Shown in pieces: positions 30,948 through 47,716 of a stretch of 64,000 nucleotides of DNA (positions are counted from its first letter, which is position 1; every line of letters starts with the position of its first letter). The notes beneath the pieces were generated by a model. The model had not been told where the DNA came from. It searched no databases and saw only the letters and a list, made by a program, of their open reading frames with translations. Location: positions 32,047-96,046 of the IMG/VR virus record IMGVR_UViG_3300035438_000341; one strand, 5' to 3'. Source of the stretch: a virus. Made by a program: the position numbers and the translations under genes.

Positions 30948-32816
30948 ATGAATCAATTTTGTGAAGCTATTCCATGTCCTGTTATACTAAATGCTACCTG
31001 CGTATTCTACGAAGGAGCTAATCTAGTATGTTCAGGAATCAATACTAATGACACTCTTGAGACCGTCATAGTTAAATTAAATACTAAATTATGTAATGTT
31101 AGTGGCACATCTGGAACCAGTGGGACTAGTGGGACTAGCGGTACATCAGGTAGTAGTGGTGCACAAGGAGATAAATATAGAACAACTAGCAATGATGAAC
31201 TTACATTAGGGCAAGGAGGACAATTAAATGTTGATACATTATTAGCATATACTCCTGGACAATCTATCATTATATCACATAATGCATATAACTATCAAGA
31301 GTGTATTGTTATTGATTATAATCCTTTAATAGGAATATTAAACTTTGAGTTTCCTTCACAAGTTTTTGGATCTGGAACATTTACCTATTGGGACATCAAT
31401 CTAAAAGGTGCTGCTGGTGGTGATGGTTCTTCAGGTAGCTCTGGTACATCTGGAACAACTGGTAGCAGTGGAACGTCAGGGACTAGTGGTTTAGCAGGAT
31501 CAGATGGTTGTCCTGGTACTAGCGGTACTAGTGGTACATCTGGTATTAATGGAACTTCAGGTACAAGAGGTACATCAGGTAGTAGTGGCACAAGTGGGAA
31601 CACTGGTTTAAATGGAAGTAGTGGAACATCTGGTACTTCTGGTACTTCTGGCACTACAGGTACTAGTGGAACGAGTGGAACATCAGGAACTAGTGGAACT
31701 AGTGGAAGTGGTGGTTCTTCTGGGACTAGTGGAACAACAGGTACTAGTGGTACATCAGGAACTTCTGCTACATCAGGTACATCAGGTACAACTGGAACAA
31801 GTGGATCTTCAGGTGTATCACCATCACAAACTCTTCAAGAAGTAACTGATTTAGGAGCTGAAACAACGCATCCTATAATTGCTAATTCATTTATAAAATC
31901 TGGAGGTACAGGAACTAATGTTTTATTAGATGATGGTGATATTATAGCGTTATCTTCTATAGAGAGCGTAACAACTTCTCCTATAACAGCAGATTTAGAG
32001 GTGGGGGGTATTGCAGATCAGCAAATAATTCCAATTGGCACAGACCTACAAGAATTTGCAACATTGCTATTAACTAAAACTTATTATCCAGTATTAACCG
32101 CTCCCACTTTTGCATTAAGTAATAATGCTGGAACAAGAGAGATTGGTAGTTCATCCGCTTTAACTTTAACATTTACTTACAACGATGGTGATGTACTAGG
32201 AAAAACAGTTGGAGGCATTTGGCAACCATCTACTTCACAAGGAGGAAGGTCTGGTGCTGCAATTAGTTATACCATTAATGGTACTACACAAACTGGTAAT
32301 ACGTTGTCAGTTTCTCCAATAATTACCGCAAGTGTAAATACATTTAGTGGAACAGTAACTTATGGAATAGGAATTCAACCATTAGATAGTAAAGGAATAA
32401 ATTATGATGCCCCATATCCAGCAGGAACATCCCCGACAAGATCAACTACTGTACAAGGAATATATCCATACTTTTGGTATAAGTCAGCTTCTCCTATAAC
32501 ATCGGCTGGAATGCAGGCAGCTATCGCGAATGGCACAGCAACTAAAGAAGTTTCATCATCAACAGGAACTATTACAATTGACTTTGATGCAGCAGGAGAA
32601 TACTTAGCATTTGCATACCCTAGCACATCAACAACAAAAACAGTTTGGTATGTGACAGCATTAAGTAACGGAACAATACCAGGAGGAGTATTCGGTGGAG
32701 CTACAACATTACCTTGTAATTCTTCCACAAGTTTATGGTCGAATGTTTCATATAAAATACACGTTACTGCGGGACTAATCACTGAATCACAACCAATGCA
32801 ACTTAGAAACTCTTAA
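30948..32816 (+). CDS. Fibre/decoration protein with (SGT)n Gly-X-Y repeats
   Basis: Cys-rich N-terminal anchor, long Ser-Gly-Thr triplet tracts, beta-rich C-terminus. Confidence 0.7.
   Translation: MNQFCEAIPCPVILNATCVFYEGANLVCSGINTNDTLETVIVKLNTKLCNVSGTSGTSGTSGTSGTSGSSGAQGDKYRTTSNDELTLGQGGQLNVDTLLAYTPGQSIIISHNAYNYQECIVIDYNPLIGILNFEFPSQVFGSGTFTYWDINLKGAAGGDGSSGSSGTSGTTGSSGTSGTSGLAGSDGCPGTSGTSGTSGINGTSGTRGTSGSSGTSGNTGLNGSSGTSGTSGTSGTTGTSGTSGTSGTSGTSGSGGSSGTSGTTGTSGTSGTSATSGTSGTTGTSGSSGVSPSQTLQEVTDLGAETTHPIIANSFIKSGGTGTNVLLDDGDIIALSSIESVTTSPITADLEVGGIADQQIIPIGTDLQEFATLLLTKTYYPVLTAPTFALSNNAGTREIGSSSALTLTFTYNDGDVLGKTVGGIWQPSTSQGGRSGAAISYTINGTTQTGNTLSVSPIITASVNTFSGTVTYGIGIQPLDSKGINYDAPYPAGTSPTRSTTVQGIYPYFWYKSASPITSAGMQAAIANGTATKEVSSSTGTITIDFDAAGEYLAFAYPSTSTTKTVWYVTALSNGTIPGGVFGGATTLPCNSSTSLWSNVSYKIHVTAGLITESQPMQLRNS
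31425..31815 (+). repeat. Coding 9-bp-period repeat encoding (S-G-T/S)n
   Basis: Synonymously diversified units such as ACTAGTGGA, ACATCAGGT and TCTGGT; a shorter tract lies at 31101-31160. Confidence 0.9.
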
Positions 32817-32818
32817 TT

Positions 32819-34717
32819 ATGGCAATAAATTTAACAGACAATATAAGAGTAGGACAACAATTACCTGTTGATAGCAGGTATTTTAATGGACTACTCCCAT
32901 GGGACTCTTTAGTAGCAGTAACCACAGGAATACCAACTGCATTAAGATTTCGTGGTCTCACCGTAAATATTTTAGGGGTTGAGTACTGGTGGGCAGATGG
33001 AATATTAGATGCGCAGTTAGTAATAAAAACAGTAGACGTTACTCTAAACCTTCAAGAGGTAACAGATGAAGGTTCTACAACAACTAATTCTATAACCGCA
33101 AACTCATTTATTAAACAAGGAGGTACTTCTTCTGAAATATTAGCAGCTGATGGAGATATAATAACTGCTGGAAATAATATTACAATTACAAATGGGGAAA
33201 TATCTTCTATTGGTGGTAGTGGAGGAGGAGGTTCAACTGTTAATTATTACTTAAACGGAGGCACAAGTCAAGGCACATTTGGAGGTACAACTTATTACGA
33301 GTTTAGTAAGACTGCAGTAATAGGCACAAGGGTAGACTTTAGTGTAAGTTCTGATGGATATATAGCTTCATTTATAACGGATGTTGCAGACCCATCATTA
33401 TTACTTATACCTATTGGAAATTGGATTATAGAGTTTTACTTTTCAGCTAATTCTGCTGGTGGCTCACCTTCATTCTATGTTGAATTGTATAAAGTAAGTG
33501 TAACCAATGTTTTTACTCTAATTTCAAGTAGTTCCGCTACTCCTGAAGGAATAACAAATGGTGACGTTATTGATGCTTATTTTACAACATTATCAGTTCC
33601 TGAAACAACATTAGATATAAATGATAGATTAGCTATAAGAGTTTTTGTGAATGCTTCAGGAAAAACAATAACACTACATACACAAGATGAAACTCTTTGT
33701 GAAGTACTAACAACTTTCACAACTGGATTAACTGCTTTAAATGGATTACAAGCACAAGTTCAAAATTTTGCAACAGGAACAACAGGAACAGATTTTGCTA
33801 TTAATTCAAGTGGAAGTGTACATACATTTAATTTACCAAGTGCAAGTGCAACCGCAAGAGGTGTAGTTACAACAGCAAGTCAAACATTTGCTGGAGGTAA
33901 GACATTTAGTTCTAATCCTAAAATACCTATAAATGTAGGTAATAGTGGTGCTGGAGCAATAGTAATAGATGATGGAACTGGACAAATAGAAGTGGCAAAT
34001 AATCTTATTTATCCAAACACAAATGAATTAACCTATGTAAAAGGAGTTACAAGTGGAATTCAAACACAATTAAATGCAAAATCACCATTAGCATCACCAA
34101 CCTTTACAGGAACAGTTGTTTTACCAAGTACAACTTCAATAGGAAATGTATCTTCAACAGAAATAGGTTATTTAGACGGGGTAACAAGCGGGATTCAAAC
34201 TTCGCTAGATGGTAAAGTGTCATTAGCAACTACTCAGACTATAACAGCAGCAAAGACATTCTCAAATAACATTACAGCAAGCGCTAATATCATAGGAACT
34301 AATACTCCAGATATAAGTAACGCGTCTTATAATATAATAATAAGAAACGCATCAACTGGTGTTTTTGAAAAATTAGGAGCAACTACTATTCAACCATTAA
34401 TATACAATATATTAATTACTTCAGCAGTAGGTATAACTACACAAACACTAGGGACGAATGGCGGATTAGACTATTCTCAAGATGGTAGAAATGTAATGAT
34501 TGATAATGGTTCAACAGCAATACAAGTCACAGCTACAAATGCTTCAAGTAGTTTTATTGCTAGTTATACCAAGCTAGGCACTGGAATTATAACATTTGCA
34601 TCAAGTCCAGCACCTATAGCTCCTTATGGTACTCAATTAAATGGCAACCCAGGTAGTACAGCTCTATTAACAAAAAACGGAACTACGGTTTATTTATTAG
34701 TGAATAATTTATTATGA
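32819..34717 (+). CDS. Tail fibre-like protein
   Basis: T/S/G-rich; QTFAGGKTFS and QTITAAKTFS fibre motifs; duplicated E..Y..GVTSGIQT.L..K; shares LQEVTD..ANSFIK.GGT with the upstream gene. Confidence 0.7.
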   Translation: MAINLTDNIRVGQQLPVDSRYFNGLLPWDSLVAVTTGIPTALRFRGLTVNILGVEYWWADGILDAQLVIKTVDVTLNLQEVTDEGSTTTNSITANSFIKQGGTSSEILAADGDIITAGNNITITNGEISSIGGSGGGGSTVNYYLNGGTSQGTFGGTTYYEFSKTAVIGTRVDFSVSSDGYIASFITDVADPSLLLIPIGNWIIEFYFSANSAGGSPSFYVELYKVSVTNVFTLISSSSATPEGITNGDVIDAYFTTLSVPETTLDINDRLAIRVFVNASGKTITLHTQDETLCEVLTTFTTGLTALNGLQAQVQNFATGTTGTDFAINSSGSVHTFNLPSASATARGVVTTASQTFAGGKTFSSNPKIPINVGNSGAGAIVIDDGTGQIEVANNLIYPNTNELTYVKGVTSGIQTQLNAKSPLASPTFTGTVVLPSTTSIGNVSSTEIGYLDGVTSGIQTSLDGKVSLATTQTITAAKTFSNNITASANIIGTNTPDISNASYNIIIRNASTGVFEKLGATTIQPLIYNILITSAVGITTQTLGTNGGLDYSQDGRNVMIDNGSTAIQVTATNASSSFIASYTKLGTGIITFASSPAPIAPYGTQLNGNPGSTALLTKNGTTVYLLVNNLL

Positions 34718-37700
34718 TAACACCAGCAATACGTTATATATCAAGTTTCCAAGATGCTACTAATAGTAGTTCAATACCAGTGCCAACACCTGTTATGGTT
34801 GATGGTAGAATATGGGATCAAAAAAATCTAAATGTATCAACTTATAGGAGCGGTAGAGTTATTCCACAAGTTAAAACAGGGTGGAGTACACTAACAACTG
34901 GTGCTTGGCGTTATTATAATGATAATCCAGCAAGTGCAGCAGTATATGGAAGGCTTTATAATTGGTATGCAATGATGGGTATTTATGATGCTGCATCTTT
35001 AGCAGACCCATCTTTAAGAGATAATATAGCCCCTGTTGATTGGGAGGTTGCTACCTATGGCGAGTGGATAACATTAAGAAATATTCTTGGAAGAAGTACA
35101 GCTGCAATAGCTTTAAAAGAAAGCGGTCCTGCTCATTGGGGGCCTACTAATACAGGTACTAACTCAAGTTTTTTTACAGCATTACCTGGAGGATATAAAC
35201 TCTCTAGTAATAATACGGGTTTCAATAGATTGGGTTCGTATGGTTATTGGTGGCCAAAAGATGCTACTGGGTATTTTCGTTTGGACAATATTTCTAATGC
35301 ATTAGGTTATGTTAGTACAACCGCAAAAAAAGTCGGATTTTCAATAAGACTTATAAAGCCAACTACTGTAATACCAGGATTTACAACTACATATCCAACT
35401 CCATACCCAACATCACTTCTAGGCACTGGAGGCGATATACCAACTAGTTATTCTGGAACAATAACAGAAAGAGGTATAGTATATGGAACAACAATAAACC
35501 CTACGATAGCCAACACAAAGATTCAAAGCGGAACTGGAACTGGTTCGTATACTATTAATATAACAACACCCCCATTATCGGTTAATACAGAATATTTTAT
35601 TAGGGCTTATGCCATATCTAGTATTGATGGTCTTGTATACGCTCCTAATATTAGTGTTTTTACGCTTAACTCTACCCCTACTGTATTTACAAATAATACT
35701 AGTCAAATAACAACAAATTCAGCTCTAAGTGGAGGCTATGTAGAAGATGCTGGCGGGCTTACTCTAACGACTAAAGGTGTTTGTTGGAGTACAAGTCCAA
35801 ATCCAACAGTAGCCTTACCTACTAAAACCTCAATTACTGGTAGCGAGATAGGAGCGTTTGTTAGTGAAATAACTGGATTAGCTCTTAACACAAAATATTA
35901 TGTACGTGCTTATGCAACAAACACAGCTACTACTGGATATGGTCAGCAAGAAGAGTTTACAACATTAGCAACCCCTTCGCTTAATCTTATATTTAATCAA
36001 TATTACGCGCACCATGCATATTCATTAAGAAAATTAAGCGATACATATGATTATAGATGTGTGAGAGTTAGGAGAACAACGTCAACGCCAAGTGTAACCA
36101 CAACAACGGTTGATGTATTTTTTAATTCATACAGTGAAATAGGATTATACAGCGATATACTTTATGTGTCTGGAACAGTTACATTGGCAACAACATTAGG
36201 AGAATTTGCGGACGGGGTAGTTGATGGTTTTCCAGCACAAGATATTTACGTTGTTACCTGGTATGATCAAAGTGGTAATGGTAAAAATCCAACAAATGCA
36301 ACTGCAGGACAACAACCAAGATTAGTTAGGGTAGATTCGGGGGTTGCTACATTAGAAACTTCAGAAGGCAAAGCTTCAGTTAGATTTATATCCGCTAATA
36401 ATCAAAGGTTGAATTTAGTTGATACATCAATTTCTTATAATAATATATCAAATTTTGTATTATCAAATGCTATTGCTGCAACTAATGATGCATTTTTTGC
36501 ATTAAATGAGACTTTAACTACAAGATATTATATTGCTGGGAGAGGTATTTCATATGTAACTGCTGGAACATTTCTTTATTCAGCGGCAACTGGAGTTAAT
36601 AGATTGTATGAAACAATATCAGGAATATCTACCACAAGTGCTTATATAAATGGGATAATACAATCACCATCTTCTGTTACTTCATCAACAGTAACTAATG
36701 CATTTATTAAAATAGGTAGTGCTGGTGCTCCAGCAAACTTTACAGATGGATATATTTCAGAAGTAATATCATTTATAGGCACTCCAGATAGGTTAAATAT
36801 AGAGCAAAATATGATGGACTATTATGGAATCCAAAGACTTCCTTTAGTAACAACTGCTGACGTAAATTATATAGATCCTACAGGAACAGCTATTGGAGGA
36901 GGGAATCTAATTGATGAATTTGGTATTACACCAACTACAAAAGGAGTATGTTGGAATACATTTCAAAACCCCGCTATTGATTCTGGTGCAGTAACAAATG
37001 ATGGAACAGGTATTGGCGCTTTTACAAGTAATTTAAATTTTTTATCGGCTTACACACAATATTATGTTAGAGCGTATGCTTCAAACAGTCTTACAACTTC
37101 TTATGGCGAAGAAAAACAATTTATAACAGGTAACGCTCCTTATGTTTTTATCTTAGATGCATTCCCTTCTGCTCATCACGCTTATTCATTAAGAAAATTA
37201 AGAACTGCATATACAGGTTTTTGTTTAAGGGTTAGAAGAACAGCGGCAACTTCAACTGAAGTTAATGTAGGATTTGATACAAATGGAACAATTAGTTTTA
37301 GTAGTCCAATATCTTTTGCCTCAGGAACCGCAACGAACGCAGTTAATTTAGGAGAATTTGCACAAGGGACAGTAGATGGGCTAACTGCCCAATCAATTTT
37401 TGTTGTTACGTGGTATGACCAAAGTGGTAACGGTAAAAATCCATCACAGACAACCGCTGGATTTCAACCAAGATTGGTAAATGTAATATCAGGTGTTGCT
37501 ACATTAGAAACGTCTGGAGGGAAGGTAGCAGTTAGATTTATAAATACATCATCAACAAGATTATCAATAGCGGATGCTACTGCGAATATAAATAATATGT
37601 CTAGTTATTATGTAGGTCAATTTGTAACAACAGCAACAGACCAAGTCGCTTATACCATAGGTAGAGCAGCTGGTTCTCTTTTTTATTTTCCATATATAGC

Positions 37701-38016
37701 TACAAATACTAATGTTGGATATGGCGCACCGTCAAATTCTATTCAATTAGAGATAGGAAAAACAACAGCTAGAAGGTTATATGAAGTTTTATCACCATCT
37801 CCTTTAAATTCAGCAGTAGCTCAAGGGTGGACAAATGGCGTACCTAAGAACACTTATCCTTTAGCGTCTGGATTAAACACTATTATACAATTAGGAGGAC
37901 AAGGGGCAATAGCTTTTTTAGATGGATATATTCAAGAAGTAATAGGGTGGCAATCAAATACTTATAGAGGAGAAAAAGAAATGAATATTAACAATTATTG
38001 GCAAATTTATGTATAA
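34714..38016 (+). CDS. Receptor-binding/adhesin-like protein: FISUMP (Fib_succ_major) domain, FN3-like domains and two arabinofuranosidase-B/ConA-like domains
   Basis: W..KNL.V..YR.G..YG.LYNWYA..FTALPGG..GFSIRL; repeated YYVRAYA.N..YG; HHAYSLRKL..RVRR..VVTWYDQSGNG occurs twice. Confidence 0.7.
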   Translation: MITPAIRYISSFQDATNSSSIPVPTPVMVDGRIWDQKNLNVSTYRSGRVIPQVKTGWSTLTTGAWRYYNDNPASAAVYGRLYNWYAMMGIYDAASLADPSLRDNIAPVDWEVATYGEWITLRNILGRSTAAIALKESGPAHWGPTNTGTNSSFFTALPGGYKLSSNNTGFNRLGSYGYWWPKDATGYFRLDNISNALGYVSTTAKKVGFSIRLIKPTTVIPGFTTTYPTPYPTSLLGTGGDIPTSYSGTITERGIVYGTTINPTIANTKIQSGTGTGSYTINITTPPLSVNTEYFIRAYAISSIDGLVYAPNISVFTLNSTPTVFTNNTSQITTNSALSGGYVEDAGGLTLTTKGVCWSTSPNPTVALPTKTSITGSEIGAFVSEITGLALNTKYYVRAYATNTATTGYGQQEEFTTLATPSLNLIFNQYYAHHAYSLRKLSDTYDYRCVRVRRTTSTPSVTTTTVDVFFNSYSEIGLYSDILYVSGTVTLATTLGEFADGVVDGFPAQDIYVVTWYDQSGNGKNPTNATAGQQPRLVRVDSGVATLETSEGKASVRFISANNQRLNLVDTSISYNNISNFVLSNAIAATNDAFFALNETLTTRYYIAGRGISYVTAGTFLYSAATGVNRLYETISGISTTSAYINGIIQSPSSVTSSTVTNAFIKIGSAGAPANFTDGYISEVISFIGTPDRLNIEQNMMDYYGIQRLPLVTTADVNYIDPTGTAIGGGNLIDEFGITPTTKGVCWNTFQNPAIDSGAVTNDGTGIGAFTSNLNFLSAYTQYYVRAYASNSLTTSYGEEKQFITGNAPYVFILDAFPSAHHAYSLRKLRTAYTGFCLRVRRTAATSTEVNVGFDTNGTISFSSPISFASGTATNAVNLGEFAQGTVDGLTAQSIFVVTWYDQSGNGKNPSQTTAGFQPRLVNVISGVATLETSGGKVAVRFINTSSTRLSIADATANINNMSSYYVGQFVTTATDQVAYTIGRAAGSLFYFPYIATNTNVGYGAPSNSIQLEIGKTTARRLYEVLSPSPLNSAVAQGWTNGVPKNTYPLASGLNTIIQLGGQGAIAFLDGYIQEVIGWQSNTYRGEKEMNINNYWQIYV

Positions 38017-38445: not shown

Positions 38446-38531
38446 CAAATCAAGACAAAAACTGGATCTTATTTTGGGTAATTATAGTTGTAGCAATAGC
38501 TATAATAGTACACTTCAGCGATCACGTATAA
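38442..38531 (+). CDS. 29-aa single-TM peptide
   Basis: ATGA-coupled to the upstream gene; MTNQDKNWILFWVIIVVAIAIIVHFSDHV; ends at the terminator hairpin. Confidence 0.5.
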   Translation: MTNQDKNWILFWVIIVVAIAIIVHFSDHV

Positions 38532-38552
38532 ACCCTCTATATGAGGGTTTTT
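38530..38552. terminator. Bidirectional intrinsic terminator
   Basis: AAACCCTC-TATAT-GAGGGTTT followed by a T-run, between convergent genes. Confidence 0.7.
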
Positions 38553-41509
38553 ATTTCTGCTATCACCATCTCTGGAGTTATACTAGTCTGACATTCAAAC
38601 TGTCTATCTGTACCTTTGTGAACAGGGCACCAATCCCAATCTCCTTTATCAAACTTATATTGTGGATCATTCCAGCATCCATGACATACATTTGTGTTAA
38701 CTGGTCTATGGCATGAAAACTCATGATCTTTATCAGTGAAGTTAGAGATCATTATCACTGGTACATCTAACCCCCAAGCTAACCAACTTAGTCCACTAGA
38801 TAGTCCTATAAAGAATTCACTTTGTGTTATCCATTCTATTGTACTACCTATTGATTTATCAATTAATGCATCACAATTGTCAAATGGATTATTTTCTAAT
38901 GATACATTTTTCACTATATATCCTTGACCATGTAAGTAATTAATCACTTCTTGCCAAGCTTCTCTGGTCCAGAACTTACACCCAGCTGTACTATTTGTAG
39001 CTATTGTAACTAGTTTATAGTTTGCTTTAAGTCCTGAGTTATGTATTCTAGGTTTGATTTCTTTATAAGGAAGTCCTAGAATATTTGTAGCTGTTTGCTG
39101 AAGAGGAATTGTATTAGGAAGAACAGGTTCTTTATTATCATTATAGAACCAACCAAGTTTATACATTGCATACAAATCATTAACTACAGACCCTGGTTCT
39201 ACAAATTCCAACATTGGATATTCTTTTTCAAATAAGAAGTTCTTATATGTACTTACAATCACTTCACAGTTATGTAGACATCTAAACTCTTCTACATAAG
39301 GCATCCAAGCTATAGTATCACCTAAAGAAGAACTATCAAAAGCTATATAAACTCTTCTACTCTCTAGATTTAGTATGTTATTATACACCTCAACACCATC
39401 CTTATACACTATAGTTTGCCACCTAGTGAAGTATTCTCTGTTAAGTTTTATCCAATGGTTGCACTTTATTGTATCATAATGAACTAACTTTTGTGTTTCA
39501 AAATCATGAAACTCTACATCAAATGTGCTATCACTGGTTCCTGTTATTTCAAGGAATGGTTGTCCAACAAAATTTTGTATGATATTATAATCATTTATAG
39601 GCGTTTTGTTCGGAATAACGGACATTGCTTTCTCATATAATGATATGTGATCTTTAGCAAAATCATCAGTTGTATTAGTTATTGGTAAATCATATTGCTT
39701 ACCATAGTTTAATAACATTTCTAATTGAGTTTTTGGTTCTTTGATATCTACTATGTAATCAGTGAACATATCTTTATACTGAGGAAGATTTCTAGCAAGG
39801 ATAGGTAACCCATATCCAATAGCTTCTCTAAGTACAAGAGGATTACATTCCCACGTGCTGTTAAACATAAATGCATCTGCAGCTTTCATAAATCTATATA
39901 TGTCATCTTTTTCTCCCCATACAGTAACATTATCAGGTAGATTTTTCATTAGTGGTTTCCAATAGTCTTCAAAGTTCCCAGCTTGATTACCTATAAAGTG
40001 AAACTCTACATATGGTAGAGATCTAGCTATCTCAATTCCTTCTCCTTGATTCTTTCCTTTGGTCCATAGTCCTACATTAACTACATGCTTTTTTCTACTA
40101 TCCATTCCTAGATATGCTTTACTGAACAGTTTGTCTTTTGGAGAAACAATCTGTTTGTCTATAGGGAACTCAATCACTTGTTTGTAACCATCTAGGTTAG
40201 CAAATGTATCTAAGTGATAAGGACTGCAGAAAGCATATGCATCAGGTGTAAATATCTTCTCAGAAGGATTGAAAGATACATCATGACATGTCTCAACTAT
40301 TCTATATTTTCTATCAGGAGAATACAATCTTGTCATCATCTTTCTATCTAGTCTCTCAGACATCTCATCTATATGTATGATGTCTGGTTTAAACTCTTCT
40401 ACAGCTTTGAAGATTCTCATCTTATCTTCATTCAGTGTATATAAGCCTGTAAGCTTTATAATCTCATCTCTCTGTACAACATAATCTTTGCTGTAACATT
40501 GATATTCTACCACTTGAATAGATACATTTGGCAGAGTTTGCAACGCTTGTATTCTTTTAAGAAGGAATGCAGGCATACCACCTGTAGATAGGTGAGGAGC
40601 AACAAATAATATTTTTAGTTTAGACATTGGTTTAGACATTTTAGACATTAGTTTAGACATTTGTACTGGATCTTTCTCTCCATGTAGGAATAGTAATTGT
40701 TCTTTACACTCTGGTAACCTGAACCAATTGTTAACATGTTTACCCCAGTTATCTTCATTATATATCCTATCTAGCTTGTCAAGACCAGCATTAGTGTATA
40801 TATAAGGAAGACCCTGATGTATATTATATTTCCACAATAGCACATTTACTATTGTCTCTTCATGATAGGGAGCATAGATTTGTGGATTCTCAAGTATAGT
40901 GGGATGAGTGCACATCCAATACCACTCATCTAGAAAGTTAATAGTGTTCTTACCAGCCACAAAGTAACCAGTTTGTCTATATCTCTCTCTCACATATTGA
41001 TTTACATTGAATAATTCACATGCTGGATGTTCTAGTGTAGTGGAGAGATCTTCTTTACTATCAGCTCCTCCTCTTCCATTGTTATGCAGATAGTCATATA
41101 TACCTTCTACAAAATATGGATGTCCACATTCAGTGTTGTACATATCAAATATACTATCTACATACTGAGTAGCTACACTGTCAGAATCTACGTAACATAT
41201 TGTATTAGCAAAGTGCTCAAGAGCATGCTTAACTATAAGAGGCCTTTTTATTAATAGATTGTATATTCTTGAATCATCTCTATCTATATAAACTTCTTGT
41301 GATACATCTTTAATATCACACTCCCAGTATACAGTATTAGCTCCAGGAACCTCTCTGTGATCATTTAACAGGTACACTGTGATTGGTATATTGCTAAACT
41401 GTTGAATGCTCTCTACAGCCATGCATACAGTGCTGTAATAAGATGCATTTGCATATAAAACGTACATTTTATCTGCTTTTATATGTTGATACGTATAACT
41501 ATCGGACAT
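38537..41509 (-). CDS. Tri-domain glycosyltransferase: GT-A (DxD) + GT4-like GT-B + autotransporter O-heptosyltransferase (TibC/Aah-like)
   Basis: YVDSD; LFVAPHLSTGG..KGKNQ..ECNPLVLREAIGYG.P; SLGDTIAW..FIGLSSGLSWLAW..CHGCW..WCP.H..FEC. The ATG at 41509 is preferred because a promoter box overlaps the TTG at 41530. Confidence 0.85.
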   Translation of the reverse strand: MSDSYTYQHIKADKMYVLYANASYYSTVCMAVESIQQFSNIPITVYLLNDHREVPGANTVYWECDIKDVSQEVYIDRDDSRIYNLLIKRPLIVKHALEHFANTICYVDSDSVATQYVDSIFDMYNTECGHPYFVEGIYDYLHNNGRGGADSKEDLSTTLEHPACELFNVNQYVRERYRQTGYFVAGKNTINFLDEWYWMCTHPTILENPQIYAPYHEETIVNVLLWKYNIHQGLPYIYTNAGLDKLDRIYNEDNWGKHVNNWFRLPECKEQLLFLHGEKDPVQMSKLMSKMSKPMSKLKILFVAPHLSTGGMPAFLLKRIQALQTLPNVSIQVVEYQCYSKDYVVQRDEIIKLTGLYTLNEDKMRIFKAVEEFKPDIIHIDEMSERLDRKMMTRLYSPDRKYRIVETCHDVSFNPSEKIFTPDAYAFCSPYHLDTFANLDGYKQVIEFPIDKQIVSPKDKLFSKAYLGMDSRKKHVVNVGLWTKGKNQGEGIEIARSLPYVEFHFIGNQAGNFEDYWKPLMKNLPDNVTVWGEKDDIYRFMKAADAFMFNSTWECNPLVLREAIGYGLPILARNLPQYKDMFTDYIVDIKEPKTQLEMLLNYGKQYDLPITNTTDDFAKDHISLYEKAMSVIPNKTPINDYNIIQNFVGQPFLEITGTSDSTFDVEFHDFETQKLVHYDTIKCNHWIKLNREYFTRWQTIVYKDGVEVYNNILNLESRRVYIAFDSSSLGDTIAWMPYVEEFRCLHNCEVIVSTYKNFLFEKEYPMLEFVEPGSVVNDLYAMYKLGWFYNDNKEPVLPNTIPLQQTATNILGLPYKEIKPRIHNSGLKANYKLVTIATNSTAGCKFWTREAWQEVINYLHGQGYIVKNVSLENNPFDNCDALIDKSIGSTIEWITQSEFFIGLSSGLSWLAWGLDVPVIMISNFTDKDHEFSCHRPVNTNVCHGCWNDPQYKFDKGDWDWCPVHKGTDRQFECQTSITPEMVIAEIKTLI

Positions 41510-41527
41510 AGGTTTGATTTTTAAAAA

Positions 41528-41535
41528 CAAAGATA
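41528..41535 (-). promoter_or_regulatory. -7 promoter box (TATCTTTG) for the glycosyltransferase gene
   Basis: TAnnTTTG on the minus strand, 18 nt upstream of ATG 41509. Confidence 0.6.
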
Positions 41536-42888: not shown

Positions 42889-43334
42889 TGGTAACAAGTG
42901 CACAAGCGTTAAAGAAATACGGAGACCCAACTAAAGAATCTGGTATGACATTATGGGATGTACCAAAAGAATTAGAAATTGGTGTACTCCCTAAGAGATT
43001 ATATTGTAACAAAGATATGATCCTGCCATTAACAAAAGCTTTTAAAAATCTCATATCTACAGGATGTGTTAAAGAATTAAAAACTTGGGATGGATGTTTC
43101 AATATAAGAAAGAAAAGAGGACTTGCATCAATGTCTTTACATTCTTGGGGTTGTGCTGTGGATTTAAACGCTTCAGATAATGTTCTTGGTAAATCTTATT
43201 CTGAGTTACTGAAGTTAGGAAAAAAACCTTTTTCTGAAGAATTTTTAAATTGTTTTAGACTAGCAGGGTTTGATGCTGGAGGAGATTGGACCACTCGTCC
43301 TGATAGAATGCACTTTCAATTAAAAAATATTTAA
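42888..43334 (+). CDS. Endolysin, peptidase M15 family
   Basis: Zn-binding motif SLHSWGCAVD (SxHxxGxAxD) and C-terminal D.MHFQ. Confidence 0.9.
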   Translation: MVTSAQALKKYGDPTKESGMTLWDVPKELEIGVLPKRLYCNKDMILPLTKAFKNLISTGCVKELKTWDGCFNIRKKRGLASMSLHSWGCAVDLNASDNVLGKSYSELLKLGKKPFSEEFLNCFRLAGFDAGGDWTTRPDRMHFQLKNI

Positions 43335-43921
43335 TGAAATCAGGAATTTATATAATAAAAAATACTATAAATAATAAGGTTTACATTGGGCAATCTAATA
43401 ACATTCAACTTAGATTAAATGCTCACAAAAGAATGCTTAGAAATAATATTCATGGTAATATAAAACTACAAAGATCTTATAACAAACAACCAGAAGGGTC
43501 TTTTAGTTTTGAAGTATTAGAATATTGTGAATGTGATTTTTTAAATTCTAAAGAAATTTACTACATTGCTGAACATGATTCAGTTTATAATGGATACAAT
43601 ATGGAATTTGGAGGAACTACAGCTAAAGTTATATCTCCTGAACTTAGACTTAAATTATCGCTTTCTCATCTTGGAAAACCAAGTCCTAAAAAAGGAATAA
43701 AAACTGGAAAACCTTCATGGAACTCTAATAAAAAAGGAGTACAGTGTAGTTCACGTAGAATAAAAGTAAAAGTTATAAATAAAGAAACTAAAGAAGTGAT
43801 TGGTATTTTTGAATCTAAACAAGCTTTTTGTGTTTTTATAAATTATAAGTCTAAAAACTTTAAGAAAATAAGTGATTCAGTGACACATTTAGGAAAATAT
43901 GAATTAATTAACATTATCTAA
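43334..43921 (+). CDS. GIY-YIG homing endonuclease
   Basis: SGIYIIKN..KVYIGQS..RLNAH; NUMOD3-like KLSLSHLGK. Confidence 0.9.
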   Translation: MKSGIYIIKNTINNKVYIGQSNNIQLRLNAHKRMLRNNIHGNIKLQRSYNKQPEGSFSFEVLEYCECDFLNSKEIYYIAEHDSVYNGYNMEFGGTTAKVISPELRLKLSLSHLGKPSPKKGIKTGKPSWNSNKKGVQCSSRRIKVKVINKETKEVIGIFESKQAFCVFINYKSKNFKKISDSVTHLGKYELINII

Positions 43922-44614: not shown

Positions 44615-45631
44615 ATGAAAGATTTAAAATTCATCCAAGCATGTCCAAGTGATGTATATTACACATGGCAAGTTCATTTATGGCTTGAGAGCTTAAGGAA
44701 TATTGGACATAGCGATAAAGCTATATCTGTTATATTCACACCCAAGGGAAGAGAGAATAGAGACAAATGGAAACAGATAGAAACCCTCTATCCAGAATCA
44801 GAGTTTCATTATTACAATGATGAAGACAATTTAAATCAACTGTTAGGAATATATATTCCTGTACTAAGACCATATGTACTTTGGAAACATTTCAAAGCTA
44901 ATCCAGAACTAAGTGATAAAGCTATATTCTATTGTGACTCAGACATTCTCTTTACTAAAGATTTCAATGTAGATGAGTTTACACAAGATGATGTTAATTA
45001 CTTGTCAGACACAAACAGTTACATCAATGCTACATATTTTGATAGCAAAGAAAGAGATGTTCTTCCAGAGAAACTAGAAGAATACAAAACAAGAGACATT
45101 CTTGGAGAAATAGCTAGTGTCATTGGTATAGATAGAGAGACTTGTGAAGCTAACAACCTACACTCAGGAGGAGCACAATATCTATTAAAGAATGTAGATG
45201 GTGAGTTCTGGAGTAAGGTGATGAATGATTGCATTCTTATTAGAACCTATTTACAAACAGTGAATAGAGATTTCTTTAAAGATGAGAACACAGGATATCA
45301 ATCATGGTGTGCAGATATGTGGGCTGTTCTTTGGAACCTATGGTTTAGAGAACAAGAAACAAAGGTGATTCCTGAACTAGCTTTCACTTGGGCTACAGAT
45401 CCTATATCTAAACTAGACAGTCACACAATCTTTCATAATGCAGGAATAACAGGAACATCAATGAATGGATATCCTTGTTTCTACAAAGGAAAGTATCATC
45501 AAGGAACTGATCCTACAAAAGATCCTCACTTAGATGATGTATTAAACAATATAGAATCACAGAAGTATTGTACATGGTTCTATGCAAACGAACTCAACAA
45601 AATAAAACAGAAATATACACTTAATTATTAA
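44615..45631 (+). CDS. GT-A glycosyltransferase resembling protein O-glycosyltransferases (HPAT/SERGT-like)
   Basis: YYTWQ..L..S; YIP..RP; FYCDSDILF (DxD); GGAQY; WCADMWA. Confidence 0.65.
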   Translation: MKDLKFIQACPSDVYYTWQVHLWLESLRNIGHSDKAISVIFTPKGRENRDKWKQIETLYPESEFHYYNDEDNLNQLLGIYIPVLRPYVLWKHFKANPELSDKAIFYCDSDILFTKDFNVDEFTQDDVNYLSDTNSYINATYFDSKERDVLPEKLEEYKTRDILGEIASVIGIDRETCEANNLHSGGAQYLLKNVDGEFWSKVMNDCILIRTYLQTVNRDFFKDENTGYQSWCADMWAVLWNLWFREQETKVIPELAFTWATDPISKLDSHTIFHNAGITGTSMNGYPCFYKGKYHQGTDPTKDPHLDDVLNNIESQKYCTWFYANELNKIKQKYTLNY

Positions 45632-45648
45632 TAACAAAAACAATTATC

Positions 45649-45852
45649 ATGAGTAACAAGAGAGACCTTAAGGCCTATGTAAGATTCGATGGATCTGGCA
45701 GAATTGTAGCAGGAAGTTTAGTCCTAAGAAGAAGTAAGCCAAAGGTGGGCAAATGGCAAGAGATAACAGCATATGAGTGTTGTAATCCAACTACTAGTAC
45801 AACAACTACAGCAGCACCTACAACTACTACCACAACAACCCCTGCACCTTAA
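45649..45852 (+). CDS. Small protein with a C-terminal poly-Thr/Pro tail
   Basis: Ends CCNPTTSTTTTAAPTTTTTTTPAP. Confidence 0.75.
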   Translation: MSNKRDLKAYVRFDGSGRIVAGSLVLRRSKPKVGKWQEITAYECCNPTTSTTTTAAPTTTTTTTPAP

Positions 45853-45861
45853 TATTAAATT

Positions 45862-46278
45862 ATGGCTTTAAAATCATTATTCCCAGAAGATATGATTAGT
45901 AAAGGAACTGGTAGCGAGCTCTCATTAGAGAGCATTGCTGCTAAGCTTACTTACTTTCATGAGCAGCTACATTTGACTCATTGGCAAACAACTTCATACG
46001 CTGAACATCAAGCCACTGGAGCATTATATGATTATGTACATGATTTTAAAGATGGACTGATTGAAAAGATTATGGGATATACAGGTAAAAGACCTGGCCC
46101 ATATAAAATTGAACCTCTTATAAACTGTACATCTGCTCAATGCGTTTCAGATCTTTTATCTTTCGCATCAGCTTTAAAAATGTATGGTGAGAAGAATAGC
46201 TTCCATGATGTATGCAATCTTGCAGATGCTTTATCTGGAGAAGCAGCTAAGACAAAATTCTTATTAACACTGTCTTAG
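45862..46278 (+). CDS. Ferritin/Dps-like four-helix protein (DUF5856-like)
   Basis: HLTHWQT.SYAEH.A.G.LYD..D.L.E..MG motif. Confidence 0.75.
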   Translation: MALKSLFPEDMISKGTGSELSLESIAAKLTYFHEQLHLTHWQTTSYAEHQATGALYDYVHDFKDGLIEKIMGYTGKRPGPYKIEPLINCTSAQCVSDLLSFASALKMYGEKNSFHDVCNLADALSGEAAKTKFLLTLS

Positions 46279-46563
46279 ATGTTTGTAAACAAAAAACATT
46301 TTCCAAAACTGATGCAAGACAATGATGAAACATTTCTTGCACATTTGGAAGGTGTAATAAGCTCTGTTGATGAATTATGTAGTTTGGAGATAACAAAGCT
46401 CTCAGATAGCTTTAGATTCAGAATAGCAGCAAGTCTTCCTAAGTATAACAATATGCTTATAGAAGAAATATTAAAGTTTTGTAACATGTTCAACATAAGA
46501 GTTGACATGAGTAAATCAATTAAAACATCAAGTGTGATAACATTTGAAATAACACTAAACTAA
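46279..46563 (+). CDS. Hypothetical protein
   Basis: Tightly packed ORF within the operon. Confidence 0.65.
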   Translation: MFVNKKHFPKLMQDNDETFLAHLEGVISSVDELCSLEITKLSDSFRFRIAASLPKYNNMLIEEILKFCNMFNIRVDMSKSIKTSSVITFEITLN

Positions 46564-46564
46564 T

Positions 46565-47716
46565 ATGCCTACATTTATAAAAGCTGGATTTTGGGAACAA
46601 ACATGTAAGAATTGTAAAGGATACAATGGTTGGTTAAACCTTGATCAATTTACTGGTCAATCAGGTACCTCTGGAACTAGTGGATCTTCAGGTCCTCAAG
46701 GTGCTCAAGGAGTACAAGGAACACAAGGAATACAAGGGGTCTCTGGAACATCTGGTAGCTCTGGTGTTGCTGGTGATAGATATCAAACTACATCTACAAC
46801 AACTTTTGAATTAGGAGTGAGTACAACTCTTACTGTTGAACCAGGATTAGCTTATTCAACAGCACAAGATGTACTTATATCGTACAATCTTGCTAATCAC
46901 CAAGTGAGTCAGGTAGTAAGTTATGATCCTTTAACAGGTGTTTTAGTTATTGGACCTCCTACCACTGTAACTGGATCAGGTACATATAGTGTATGGACAA
47001 TTAATTTAGATGGTGCTGCTGGAGGAGATGGATCTTCTGGTACTTCAGGGATTAATGGTACATCAGGAACTACAGGAGCACAGGGTGTTCAAGGATTACA
47101 AGGTGTTGCTGGAAGTAACGGTACCAGTGGAACTACTGGAACTAGCGGAACATCTGGTACAAGTGGAACTAGTGGATCTTCAGGAATAAGTAATGCTACA
47201 GCATCTTATGGTTTATATGCTCAAACAGCTGATTCAACCCCTGTAACTAACACTGCTGTAGAAACAACAATAATAGGATCAGGAGTTGGTACATTAACTG
47301 TTCCTGCAAATGCATTTTCTATTGGAGATTCTTTTACATGTGCGTTAGATGGTATACTTTCTTGTACGAGTTCCTCTACAGTGCATATTAGAATAAAAAC
47401 AGGAGCTGGTGTACTTCTTGCAGATACTGGAATAATTGATTTAGCTGCAGCAACTAATAAAAATTGGATAATAAATTTATACTTTACAATTAGAACATTG
47501 GGAGCAACTACTGTTGCATCTGTTTCATCTGGAGGATTATTTTCTTATATTAGAAATGGAGGAACACAATTTGAAGGTTATAATTTAAATACAGTTAATA
47601 GCACTACATTTGATACTACTATAATTAATACATTAGAAATCACTGCACAATGGGATACAGCTATTATAGATAATTCAATAATAACAAGAAACTTTACATT
47701 AACTAAAGTATATTAA
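46565..47716 (+). CDS. Fibre/decoration protein with SGT and collagen-like GxQ repeats
   Basis: SGTSGT and QGAQGVQG tracts; GD.Y.TTS..W.INL.GAAGGDGSSG domain shared with the 30948 gene. Confidence 0.7.
   Translation: MPTFIKAGFWEQTCKNCKGYNGWLNLDQFTGQSGTSGTSGSSGPQGAQGVQGTQGIQGVSGTSGSSGVAGDRYQTTSTTTFELGVSTTLTVEPGLAYSTAQDVLISYNLANHQVSQVVSYDPLTGVLVIGPPTTVTGSGTYSVWTINLDGAAGGDGSSGTSGINGTSGTTGAQGVQGLQGVAGSNGTSGTTGTSGTSGTSGTSGSSGISNATASYGLYAQTADSTPVTNTAVETTIIGSGVGTLTVPANAFSIGDSFTCALDGILSCTSSSTVHIRIKTGAGVLLADTGIIDLAAATNKNWIINLYFTIRTLGATTVASVSSGGLFSYIRNGGTQFEGYNLNTVNSTTFDTTIINTLEITAQWDTAIIDNSIITRNFTLTKVY

What the first reader, a model, noticed from the sequence alone, without database searches (positions are those of the whole stretch)
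38537..39600. TibC/Aah-type autotransporter heptosyltransferase domain in a phage
Seen: SLGDTIAW, FIGLSSGLSWLAW and a four-Cys cluster CHGC..WCP..FEC. Known: bacterial autotransporter heptosyltransferases are Fe-binding oligomers that hyperglycosylate Ser residues on repetitive passenger domains. Inference: the substrates here are the adjacent SG-repeat fibres or the RBP. Many Bacteroidota lack heptose in their LPS and no ADP-heptose pathway is visible in the window, so the donor may be a different sugar.
Basis: partly seen in the sequence, partly recalled or inferred. Interest (0 to 1): 0.8.

Follow-up and report, generated by a model that had tools for sequence, protein, structure and literature searches.

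The report
Phage TibC-like three-domain glycosyltransferase
An uncultured crAss-related phage encodes one 990-residue protein joining three sugar-adding enzymes, the last a true relative of the E. coli adhesin-glycosylating enzyme TibC; comparison across phages suggests it sugar-coats the phage's own proline-free Gly-Ser/Thr fibres, though no sugar has been measured.

Summary
Window 38537-39600 (minus strand) encodes the C-terminal third of a 990-aa soluble protein (38537-41509). That third scores 265 bits on TIGR04414 (cut-off 200). Its model superposes on TibC at TM 0.89, against about 0.5 for LPS heptosyltransferases. The catalytic Asp, Thr/Lys/Trp donor contacts and all four iron-finger Cys are kept.

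It is not a classical TibC. It is fused behind a GT4 and a GT8-like GT-A domain. It lacks the beta-hairpin thumb that builds the TibC dodecamer. It has Thr where TibC's adenine-reading Arg-286 sits, and no autotransporter lies nearby.

The acceptor is inferred. In 50 of 59 related loci with enough flank, a proline-free (Gly-Ser/Thr-Ser/Thr)n collagen-like gene converges on the enzyme gene. Conversely, 16 of 35 viral records chosen only for such repeats carry a TibC-type domain, against 0 of 23 with ordinary collagen-like repeats.

The donor is open. No heptose genes occur in this phage, but ADP-heptose genes are common in Bacteroidota, and a few related phages carry an HldE-like kinase.

The scan has noted this pairing before on other DNA (108 notes, at least 95 genomes). 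I found no published description. It is a new variant of a known kind.

The parts
38537..41509 (-). Whole gene: 990-aa three-domain glycosyltransferase. Stop codon at 38537-38539, ATG at 41507-41509. An in-frame TTG at 41530 would add 7 residues.
   Evidence: ORF list and translation. An identical 990-aa database protein, P0006. No transmembrane segment: the highest 19-residue Kyte-Doolittle mean is 1.38.
40625..41509 (-). N-terminal GT-A domain (residues about 1-295), a retaining GT8/GT6-like fold, with the DxD motif D108-S-D110 at 41180-41188.
   Evidence: No Pfam hit. AlphaFold pLDDT 88.2. VIA-align: WbbM Z 15.6, BoGT6a 15.4, LgtC 15.4, glycogenin 14.9, PBCV-1 A64R 13.7, GlyE 13.5. Foldseek finds the ABO transferases. 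D108 and D110 are invariant in 37 sequences.
39611..40621 (-). Central GT4 (GT-B, retaining) domain, with the EX7E motif E554..E562 at 39824-39850.
   Evidence: PF00534 at 43.4 bits and PF13692 at 36 bits. phrog_2170 glycosyltransferase. Motif position. Both Glu are nearly invariant.
38540..39610 (-). C-terminal TibC/Aah-type (BAHT) domain: flattened beta-barrel, GT-B-like catalytic core and four-Cys finger.
   Evidence: TIGR04414 at 265 bits. TibC E 4e-50. Model pLDDT 92.1 and TM 0.89 to 4RAP.
39317..39319 (-). Catalytic-base Asp (D731 in 990-aa numbering), equivalent to TibC Asp-110.
   Evidence: Alignment to TibC; the 4RB4 chain carries the D110A change at this column. Invariant in 155 of 155 BAHT domains.
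38591..38686 (-). Four-Cys 'iron-finger' C942, C945, C961, C973, equivalent to TibC Cys-339/342/358/370.
   Evidence: Alignment. Invariant in the 55-sequence alignment A1. Residue roles from PMC4358343.
38840..38842 (-). Thr-890 at the position of TibC Arg-286, which contacts adenine N1.
   Evidence: Ungapped alignment. Thr is nearly invariant in this clade. Among 155 domains the position reads T 51, R 38, V 26.
38870..38905 (-). Site of the 10-residue deletion that removes the beta-hairpin thumb (TibC Phe-265/Val-266).
   Evidence: MAFFT alignment with three autotransporter-linked bacterial BAHTs. The segment is 8 residues here and 17 in the bacterial enzymes.
30948..32816 (+). Collagen-like tail-fibre gene with (Gly-Thr-Ser)n tracts; candidate acceptor.
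   Evidence: Translation. Tail-fibre PHROGs. X/Y positions of the window's repeats are 69% Ser/Thr, 1% Pro and 5% charged.
46565..47716 (+). Second collagen-like fibre gene with (Gly-Thr-Ser)n tracts; candidate acceptor.
   Evidence: Translation. Tail-fibre PHROGs. A relative is present in 45 of 80 related loci.
38530..38550 (.). G+C-rich hairpin with a T-run, overlapping the gene's stop codon, where the plus-strand structural genes and this minus-strand gene converge.
   Evidence: Terminator-like scan: 4 sites found against 1.0 expected.

Best explanation
The gene encodes a soluble, cytoplasmic 'assembly-line' glycosyltransferase with three intact catalytic domains: GT8-like GT-A, GT4, and a TibC/Aah-type protein O-glycosyltransferase. 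The conserved core across phages is the GT4-BAHT pair.

The most likely job is to O-glycosylate Ser (perhaps also Thr) in the phage's own proline-free (Gly-Ser/Thr-Ser/Thr)n collagen-like fibre proteins, before or during virion assembly. One GT-B domain would attach the first sugar and the other domains would extend it. By analogy with TibC the initiator is the BAHT domain, but this is not shown. The sugars would come from host nucleotide-sugar pools. ADP-heptose is possible for the BAHT domain but unproven.

The glycans plausibly stabilise a triple helix that lacks proline and charge pairs, and would coat the fibre.

Shown: homology, fold, conserved catalytic residues, domain architecture and the genomic association. 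Inferred: the acceptor, the order of action, the donor and the benefit.
For: Homology and fold:
- TIGR04414 scores 265 bits against a cut-off of 200.
- TibC matches at E 4e-50.
- The model (pLDDT 92) superposes on 4RAP at TM 0.89, against 0.45-0.52 for WaaC/WaaF.

Residues:
- Asp-110, Thr-226, Lys-230, Trp-305 and the four Cys equivalents are kept and invariant.
- GT4 has its EX7E motif and the GT-A domain has its DxD motif.
- There is no membrane segment.

Architecture:
- Of 80 viral loci, 65 are GTA-GT4-BAHT and 13 are GT4-BAHT.
- GT4 precedes BAHT in six further lineages whose BAHT domains are only 31-50% identical.

Association:
- A Ser/Thr-rich collagen-like ORF converges on the enzyme gene, 0-4.5 kb from its 3' end, in 43 of 48 loci of the crAss-related cluster.
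- The same holds in 7 of 11 loci of a second cluster, which includes 320-kb genomes; the six of its loci checked share only the enzyme, and in two cases the repeats, with the window.
- The upstream flank rarely holds such an ORF.

Reverse test:
- Of 35 viral records of at least 40 kb chosen only for a (Gly-[ST]-[ST])x8 DNA pattern, 16 carry a TIGR04414 domain, and in about 10 it lies within 10 kb of the repeat.
- Of 24 records chosen for generic (Gly-X-Y)x10, only one does, and it is the single Ser/Thr-rich one. That gives 0 of 23 for ordinary collagen-like repeats, Fisher p about 5e-5.

Composition: enzyme-linked repeats have X/Y positions 82% Ser/Thr, 0% Pro and 3% charged, against 21%, 17% and 16% in controls.

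Precedents:
- C. difficile SgtA, encoded next to bclA3, O-glycosylates Thr and Ser in collagen triplets (PMC7157674).
- Glycosylating the Thr of (Gly-Pro-Thr)10 makes it triple-helical (PMC11923368).
- TibC modifies Ser, not Thr, at sites such as N-S-G-G (PMC4358343).
Against: - No glycan, mass shift or activity has been measured. The acceptor rests on gene association alone, and the sampled records are not fully independent phylogenetically.
- In this window the enzyme gene is not adjacent to a fibre gene. Two other structural genes (32819-38016) separate it from the fibre gene at 30948, and the other fibre gene lies 5 kb away on the far side.
- The cultured Microcystis phage Mel-JY01 has a GT4..BAHT fusion but no such repeat in 190 kb. 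The link is therefore not obligatory.
- TibC reads a folded beta-helix inside a dodecameric ring. This clade lacks the thumb that builds that ring and the adenine-reading Arg, so substrate and donor handling may differ.
- 9 of 59 loci with at least 4 kb of downstream flank lack the repeat gene.
Confidence: 0.6

Rival explanations
1. The enzyme is a protein O-glycosyltransferase, but its acceptors are other proteins. Candidates are the neighbouring Ser/Thr-rich structural proteins (32819-34717, 34714-38016), the poly-Thr small proteins near the second glycosyltransferase, or host surface proteins such as beta-helical adhesins.
For: The genes directly convergent with it in this window are the 632-aa and 1100-aa structural proteins, with 24% and 22% Ser+Thr, not a collagen-like gene. 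Mel-JY01 pairs a BAHT fusion with non-collagen structural proteins. Classical BAHTs act on beta-helices (PMC4358343).
Against: Relatives of those two structural genes occur in only 6-7 of 80 related loci, whereas the Ser/Thr collagen-like gene recurs in most. The reverse test selects specifically for the Gly-Ser/Thr repeats. No autotransporter is present in the record.
Confidence: 0.2
2. The enzyme remodels a host envelope glycan (LPS core, capsule or S-layer glycan) during infection, for example to block superinfection or aid release.
For: The domain belongs to the GT9 superfamily, which includes LPS heptosyltransferases; PF01075 gives 20 bits. The gene sits beside the lysis genes and is transcribed opposite to the structural block.
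Against: The LPS heptosyltransferase models score only 11-18 bits against 265 for TIGR04414. The fold is TibC-like at TM 0.89, against about 0.5 for WaaC/WaaF. The TibC-specific beta-barrel and Cys4 finger are kept. There is no membrane anchor. This reading does not explain the link to Gly-Ser/Thr repeat genes.
Confidence: 0.08
3. The enzyme glycosylates phage DNA (a hypermodified base) to evade restriction.
For: Phage DNA glycosyltransferases are also GT-B or GT-A enzymes, and the gene has the orientation of the minus-strand block at 50-64 kb.
Against: There is no specific similarity to known DNA glycosyltransferases in any search. The gene lies in the fibre and lysis region. The association with repeat fibres would be unexplained.
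Confidence: 0.03
4. The BAHT domain is a non-catalytic binding or assembly module, as proposed for some BAHT relatives such as BimC. Only the GT4 and GT-A domains would transfer sugar.
For: The thumb and Arg-286, both needed for TibC activity, are absent.
Against: The catalytic Asp is invariant in 155 of 155 domains, and the Thr/Lys/Trp donor contacts are invariant in the 55-sequence alignment A1. That pattern points to selection for catalysis.
Confidence: 0.04

Closest known systems
TibC-TibA and Aah-AIDA-I of E. coli (bacterial autotransporter heptosyltransferases, BAHT; TIGR04414; PDB 4RAP/4RB4; PMC4358343)
   Same: Homologous, about 33-40% identical. Same beta-barrel plus GT-B-like fold (TM 0.89). 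Same catalytic Asp, Thr/Lys/Trp donor contacts and four-Cys finger. Ser at the Pro-300 position, as in Aah. A soluble enzyme acting on a repetitive Ser-rich protein made in the same cell.
   Different: Fused to GT4 and GT-A domains. A 10-residue deletion removes the thumb needed for the dodecamer. Thr replaces the adenine-reading Arg-286. There is no autotransporter, and the linked gene is a collagen-like fibre rather than a beta-helix. It is encoded by phages. Heptose transfer is untested.
SgtA-BclA3 of Clostridioides difficile and BclA of Bacillus anthracis (glycosylated collagen-like exosporium proteins; PMC7157674)
   Same: A glycosyltransferase gene beside a collagen-like gene whose triplets carry Thr or Ser. 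O-glycosylation occurs on those residues, with further extension by other enzymes.
   Different: SgtA is a GT-A O-GlcNAc transferase, not a BAHT. The repeats are Gly-Pro-Thr rather than proline-free. These are spore surface proteins, not phage fibres.
Mycobacteriophage virion glycosylation (Freeman et al. 2023, PMID 37329881, cited in PMC12582341; paper not held, details from my own knowledge)
   Same: Phage-encoded glycosyltransferases that O-glycosylate the phage's own virion proteins in the host cytoplasm.
   Different: Different enzyme families and hosts. The acceptors are capsid and tail-tube proteins, not collagen-like fibres. That system is shown experimentally; this one is not.
PBCV-1 A064R, a multi-domain virus-encoded glycosyltransferase (PDB 2P6W)
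   Same: One viral polypeptide carries several glycan-building domains for a structural protein. The N-terminal GT-A domains have similar folds (Z 13.7).
   Different: It is an algal virus making N-linked capsid glycans, with no GT4 or BAHT domain.
LPS heptosyltransferases WaaC/WaaF (GT9, PF01075)
   Same: Same GT-B superfamily and a distant sequence signal (20 bits).
   Different: They have no beta-barrel and no Cys4 finger. The fold match is far weaker (TM 0.45-0.52). Their acceptor is lipid-linked.

Membership tests
BAHT (TibC/Aah; TIGR04414) | Sequence score above the curated equivalog cut-off | tested here: met
   265 bits against a cut-off of 200, covering 26-373 of 374 profile positions.
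BAHT (TibC/Aah; TIGR04414) | Protomer fold: N-terminal flattened beta-barrel plus GT-B-like catalytic domain | tested here: met
   Model pLDDT 92.1, with eight strands before the first helix. TM 0.89, rmsd 2.3 A to 4RAP over about 369 columns.
BAHT (TibC/Aah; TIGR04414) | Catalytic base Asp-110 | tested here: met
   D731 aligns with it. Invariant in 155 of 155 domains.
BAHT (TibC/Aah; TIGR04414) | Donor contacts Thr-226, Lys-230 and Trp-305 | tested here: met
   T841, K845 and W909 align without gaps and are invariant in A1.
BAHT (TibC/Aah; TIGR04414) | Arg-286 contacting adenine N1 (the basis of ADP specificity; R286A abolishes or greatly reduces TibC activity) | tested here: not met
   Thr-890 occupies this position and is nearly invariant in this clade. 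Arg occurs in only 38 of 155 related domains.
BAHT (TibC/Aah; TIGR04414) | Four-Cys 1Fe-0S iron finger | tested here: met
   All four Cys are present and invariant. Iron binding itself cannot be tested here.
   An exact 10-residue deletion relative to three autotransporter-linked BAHTs. The segment is 8 residues against 17. Some other phage lineages keep it.
BAHT (TibC/Aah; TIGR04414) | Dodecameric ring assembly | not testable with these tools
   Needs SEC-MALS or cryo-EM. Loss of the thumb and the N-terminal fusions argue against it.
BAHT (TibC/Aah; TIGR04414) | Partner autotransporter (AIDA/TibA-type) gene adjacent | tested here: not met
   The bacterial references have one directly downstream. 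The phage neighbours are fibre, structural and lysis genes.
BAHT (TibC/Aah; TIGR04414) | Transfer of heptose from ADP-heptose to Ser | not testable with these tools
   The 96-kb record has no match to the SIS_2 (GmhA), NTP-transferase, cytidylyltransferase-like, NAD-epimerase or HldE-kinase families. GmhA is in 0 of 40 related records. An HldE-kinase-like gene is in 3 of 46.
GT4 (PF00534, retaining GT-B) | Pfam score over the gathering threshold, and the EX7E motif | tested here: met
   43.4 bits against 26.4. E554-x7-E562 is present and nearly invariant.
GT8/GT6-like retaining GT-A | GT-A fold with a DxD motif | tested here: met
   Z 15.4-15.6 to LgtC, BoGT6a and WbbM. D108-S-D110 is invariant. 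Assignment to one CAZy family is inconclusive, since there is no Pfam hit.
Phage virion glycosylation system (mycobacteriophage type) | Glycan demonstrated on virion proteins and dependent on the phage glycosyltransferase | not testable with these tools
   Only gene content and association are available.

The most novel reading that the evidence does not exclude
An ancient GT4-BAHT enzyme pair, spread over phage lineages with genomes from 60 kb to 548 kb, is the obligatory maturation factor of a distinct class of 'glyco-collagen' fibres. Proline-free (Gly-Ser/Thr-Ser/Thr)n chains, up to about 2700 residues long, would fold into a triple helix only after dense O-glycosylation. On this reading the few TibC/Aah enzymes of enterobacterial pathogens are a small, specialised offshoot of a mainly viral family.
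Probability: 0.3. Interest if true: 0.8.

Novelty: new variant of a known kind. Interest (0 to 1): 0.62.

Why it matters
BAHT enzymes are known only as partners of autotransporter adhesins in Proteobacteria. This work shows that the family's nearest metagenomic diversity is dominated by multi-domain proteins. In an exhaustive search, 706 cluster representatives scored E <= 1e-30, and nearly all of the top 150 were 500-2033 aa. At least in phages, these proteins track a peculiar proline-free collagen-like fibre.

If the enzyme glycosylates those fibres, three things follow:
- Virion glycosylation would extend from mycobacteriophages to crAss-related and jumbo phages of environmental bacteria.
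- It would give a concrete enzyme-substrate pair for testing whether sugars can replace hydroxyproline in stabilising a triple helix.
- It would offer a thumb-less, probably non-dodecameric BAHT for comparison with TibC.

There is also a practical point. Annotation pipelines already name these phage proteins 'autotransporter strand-loop-strand O-heptosyltransferase', or call them 'methyltransferase FkbM' as in Mel-JY01. Neither name fits their context.

Tried and rejected
- Megablast of window 30-50 kb against cultured-phage records found no match.
- PHROGs recognises only the GT4 part, so the BAHT domain is not represented there.
- LPS heptosyltransferase assignment is rejected: 11-18 bits, TM about 0.5.
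- A phage-encoded heptose pathway was not found in this record. GmhA was absent from 40 related records.
- The 'cytidylyltransferase-like' gene near the Mel-JY01 enzyme was considered as an HldE-type adenylyltransferase and rejected. Its only hits are weak ones to NMN adenylyltransferase.
- Host assignment stayed ambiguous. Phage-type contigs are binned with Sediminibacterium, Lutibacter, an unnamed Bacteroidetes MAG and a Nitrosotalea MAG. The closest cultured terminase belongs to a Leptolyngbya phage.
- Literature searches linking BAHT or heptosyltransferase with phages, or crAss-like phages with collagen-like proteins and glycosyltransferases, found nothing relevant. Freeman et al. 2023 is not held.
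- A rooted family tree, to decide whether bacterial BAHTs derive from phage ones, was not attempted, because the 150 listed representatives are biased towards the query.
Full report
WHAT IS THERE

The finding's coordinates (38537-39600) are the 3' third of a minus-strand ORF, 38537-41530. The likely start is the ATG at 41509, which gives 990 residues. An identical 990-aa protein is on record (P0006).

The window is the last 64 kb of a 96,046-base IMG/VR virus record that CheckV rates 83% complete. The gene points against a long plus-strand block of virion genes:
- a 4475-aa protein;
- collagen-like fibre genes at 30948-32816 and 46565-47716;
- structural genes at 32819-38016.

It lies next to holin-like and endolysin genes. 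A G+C-rich hairpin with a T-run overlaps its stop codon.

The three quoted motifs are present. Supporting scores:
- TIGR04414 (hepto_Aah_TibC) scores 265 bits, E 9.8e-79, against a curated cut-off of 200, over 26-373 of 374 profile positions.
- The LPS heptosyltransferase models score 11-18 bits.
- The only solved relatives by sequence are the TibC chains 4RAP/4RB4, at E 4e-50.
- An AlphaFold2 model of residues 640-997, built on a 55-sequence alignment, has pLDDT 92.1.
- That model superposes on TibC at TM 0.89 and rmsd 2.3 A, including the N-terminal beta-barrel. WaaC, WaaF and a Veillonella GT9 reach only TM 0.45-0.52.

That criterion is not met.

RESIDUE-LEVEL COMPARISON WITH TibC

Residue roles come from Yao et al. 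2014, PMC4358343.

Kept:
- catalytic base Asp-110 (here D731, 990-aa numbering);
- beta-phosphate contacts Thr-226 and Lys-230 (T841, K845);
- heptose-O4 contact Trp-305 (W909);
- the four iron-finger cysteines (C942, C945, C961, C973).

All of these are invariant in the 55-sequence alignment. The Asp is invariant in 155 of 155 related domains. The stereoselectivity position Pro-300 is Ser, as in Aah.

Not kept:
- Arg-286, which reads adenine N1 and whose Ala mutant abolishes or greatly reduces TibC activity, is Thr here. It is Thr in nearly all of this clade.
- A precise 10-residue deletion removes the tip of the beta-hairpin thumb (Phe-265/Val-266).

Other phage lineages differ on both points. 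Some keep thumb and Arg, others lose one or both.

This clade is therefore a homologue of TibC/Aah with the catalytic machinery intact. It probably has a different quaternary structure and an unproven nucleotide preference.

THE REST OF THE PROTEIN

- Residues about 297-633 are a GT4 domain (PF00534 at 43 bits, EX7E motif).
- Residues about 1-295 have no Pfam match. They fold confidently (pLDDT 88) as a retaining-type GT-A, nearest to WbbM, BoGT6a, LgtC and glycogenin at Z about 15. The DxD motif is invariant.
- There is no hydrophobic segment, so the protein is a soluble cytoplasmic enzyme with three apparently active sites.

DISTRIBUTION

The word-indexed search found 2778 relatives in the 548-1745-residue length band at E <= 0.001. 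Of the 120 best listed, most sit on short contigs, and the longest contigs reach about 125 kb.

Architectures are modular:
- the same three domains;
- or an added N-terminal methyltransferase, FkbM, GT25 or another transferase.

Among 80 IMG/VR loci, 65 are GTA-GT4-BAHT, 13 are GT4-BAHT and 2 are BAHT alone. Six further viral proteins, whose BAHT domains are only 31-50% identical to this one and to each other, all carry GT4 directly in front of BAHT. GT4-BAHT is therefore the old, conserved unit.

An exhaustive HMMER search of 1.84 billion cluster representatives gave 1444 hits at E <= 0.001 and 706 at E <= 1e-30. Nearly all of the top 150 are multi-domain proteins of 500-2033 aa.

JGI's pipeline already labels many of these proteins 'autotransporter strand-loop-strand O-heptosyltransferase'. 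I found no paper that discusses them.

WHAT DOES IT ACT ON?

Classical BAHT genes sit directly upstream of their autotransporter substrate. I confirmed this for three plasmid examples. Nothing of that kind is in the phage.

Instead, a collagen-like ORF whose X and Y positions are mostly Ser/Thr lies on the opposite strand, 0-4.5 kb beyond the enzyme's 3' end:
- in 43 of 48 loci (those with at least 4 kb of flank) of the crAss-related cluster;
- in 7 of 11 loci of a second cluster.

The second cluster includes complete 320-kb genomes. The six of its loci that I checked share only the enzyme, and in two cases the repeats, with the window. The upstream flank rarely holds such a gene.

I then ran the reverse test. 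Viral records were picked solely because their DNA contains eight consecutive Gly-[Ser/Thr]-[Ser/Thr] codon triplets.
- Of 35 such records of at least 40 kb, 16 carry a TIGR04414 domain, 15 of them over the cut-off.
- All but one of these domains lie in open frames of 683-1527 aa.
- About ten lie within 10 kb of the repeat.
- Most negatives are under 50% complete, or carry Gly-Cys-Ser, Gly-Ala-Ser or Gly-Arg-Arg repeats instead.

As a control I picked records for ten generic Gly-X-Y triplets. One of 24 had the domain, and it is the only one whose repeats are Ser/Thr-rich. That leaves 0 of 23 for ordinary collagen-like repeats. Fisher p is about 5e-5.

The enzyme-linked repeats are chemically peculiar. 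Their X/Y positions are 82% Ser/Thr, 0% Pro and 3% charged (medians), against 21%, 17% and 16% in the controls. [quoted passage not shown]

Two precedents make the inference reasonable:
- C. difficile SgtA, encoded beside bclA3, O-glycosylates Thr (and Ser) in the Gly-Pro-Thr triplets of that collagen-like protein (PMC7157674).
- Glycosylating the threonines of (Gly-Pro-Thr)10 turns a random coil into a triple helix (Bann et al. 2000, as summarised in PMC11923368).

TibC itself modifies Ser, not Thr, at sites such as N-S-G-G (PMC4358343).

CAVEATS ON THE ACCEPTOR

- Nothing has been measured.
- In this window the nearest fibre gene is 5-6 kb away on either side. Two non-collagen structural genes are the immediate convergent neighbours.
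- 9 of 59 loci lack the repeat gene.
- The only cultured carrier I found is Microcystis phage Mel-JY01. Its 1226-aa GT4..BAHT protein is annotated 'methyltransferase FkbM'. It has no such repeat anywhere in 190 kb.
- The sampled records are not phylogenetically independent to a known degree.

WHICH SUGAR?

This phage record has no match to any of these families:
- SIS_2 (the GmhA family);
- NTP-transferase;
- cytidylyltransferase-like;
- NAD-epimerase;
- HldE kinase.

GmhA is absent from all 40 related records, 20 of which are at least 90% complete. The donors must therefore be host metabolites.

- The HldE adenylyltransferase domain is over its equivalog cut-off in 127 of 201 sampled genomes of that phylum.
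- Two of three Bacteroidota MAGs that contain phage-type contigs have GmhA and both HldE domains at or near the curated cut-offs (only the adenylyltransferase domain, and one GmhA copy, are over them).
- Three of 46 BAHT-carrying phage records encode a roughly 250-aa kinase. Two of these were scanned, and their best family is the heptose-7-phosphate kinase domain of HldE, at 139-144 bits against 45-49 for ribokinase, though below the cut-off of 345. In one record it lies 1.3 kb from the enzyme gene.

Against this, the host here is unknown. By terminase the nearest cultured phages infect Leptolyngbya (40% identity), then Cellulophaga (32%), then come the gut crAss-like phages (27%). The adenine-reading Arg is missing in this clade.

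I therefore leave the donor open. ADP-heptose is a live candidate for the BAHT domain. The donors of the other two domains are undetermined.

VERDICT

- The domain call is correct and robust.
- The protein is best filed as a distinct phage subfamily of the BAHT lineage: fused, thumb-less, Arg-less and autotransporter-free. It is not a TibC/Aah equivalog.
- Its most likely role is glycosylation of the phage's own proline-free Gly-Ser/Thr collagen-like fibres (confidence 0.6).
- The same pairing has been noted many times elsewhere in this scan (108 notes in at least 95 genomes). It is a recurrent, apparently unpublished theme rather than a one-off.

Noticed in passing
window 34714-38016: The 1100-aa structural protein starts with a FISUMP-like motif (..GRLYNWYA..). 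It contains two internal copies of a roughly 300-aa module, each with ..HHAYSLRKL.. and ..VVTWYDQSGNGKNP... It is probably a duplicated receptor-binding or lectin-like module.
   Followed up: no
window 5960-6583 and 43334-43921: Two GIY-YIG-type homing endonuclease genes (phrog_314, phrog_7168) are inserted in the structural and lysis regions.
   Followed up: no
L334:1501-2247 (G016) and G245:C1:27631-28368: HldE-kinase-like genes in two BAHT-carrying phages contain one in-frame TAG each. Read as Gln, the G016 frame gives a full-length match. This hints at TAG recoding in those phages, or at broken genes.
   Followed up: partly
window 44615-45631 and 45649-46563: A second glycosyltransferase (phrog_4417) and small neighbouring proteins co-occur with the three-domain enzyme in 28-44 of 80 related loci. 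Together with the fibre gene at 46565 they form a conserved module.
   Followed up: partly
L333:4750-8430 (Microcystis phage Mel-JY01, PP395634.1): A 1226-aa protein annotated 'methyltransferase FkbM' contains GT4, TibC_1st and GT9/BAHT domains. The deposited name misses the glycosyltransferases.
   Followed up: partly
L026, L029, L030, L031 (about 11.0-21.0 kb): Two collagen-like ORFs lie in tandem downstream of the enzyme. The first is Ser/Thr-poor (about 20%) and the second Ser/Thr-rich (about 55%, up to 2656 aa). This is a natural internal contrast for testing acceptor specificity.
   Followed up: no
L087 (MAG Nitrosotalea sp., JAHEYD010000005.1): A 36%-identical BAHT-type domain lies on a 68-kb contig binned with an ammonia-oxidising archaeon. 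It may be an archaeal virus or a mis-binned phage.
   Followed up: no
G000:C1:4318-6342 and 10365-11927: The terminase (40% identity) and a 520-aa head-region protein (25%) are closest to Leptolyngbya phage Lbo-JY46. Cellulophaga phages and gut crAss-like phages are more distant. The host phylum of this 'crAss-like' phage is therefore not settled.
   Followed up: partly
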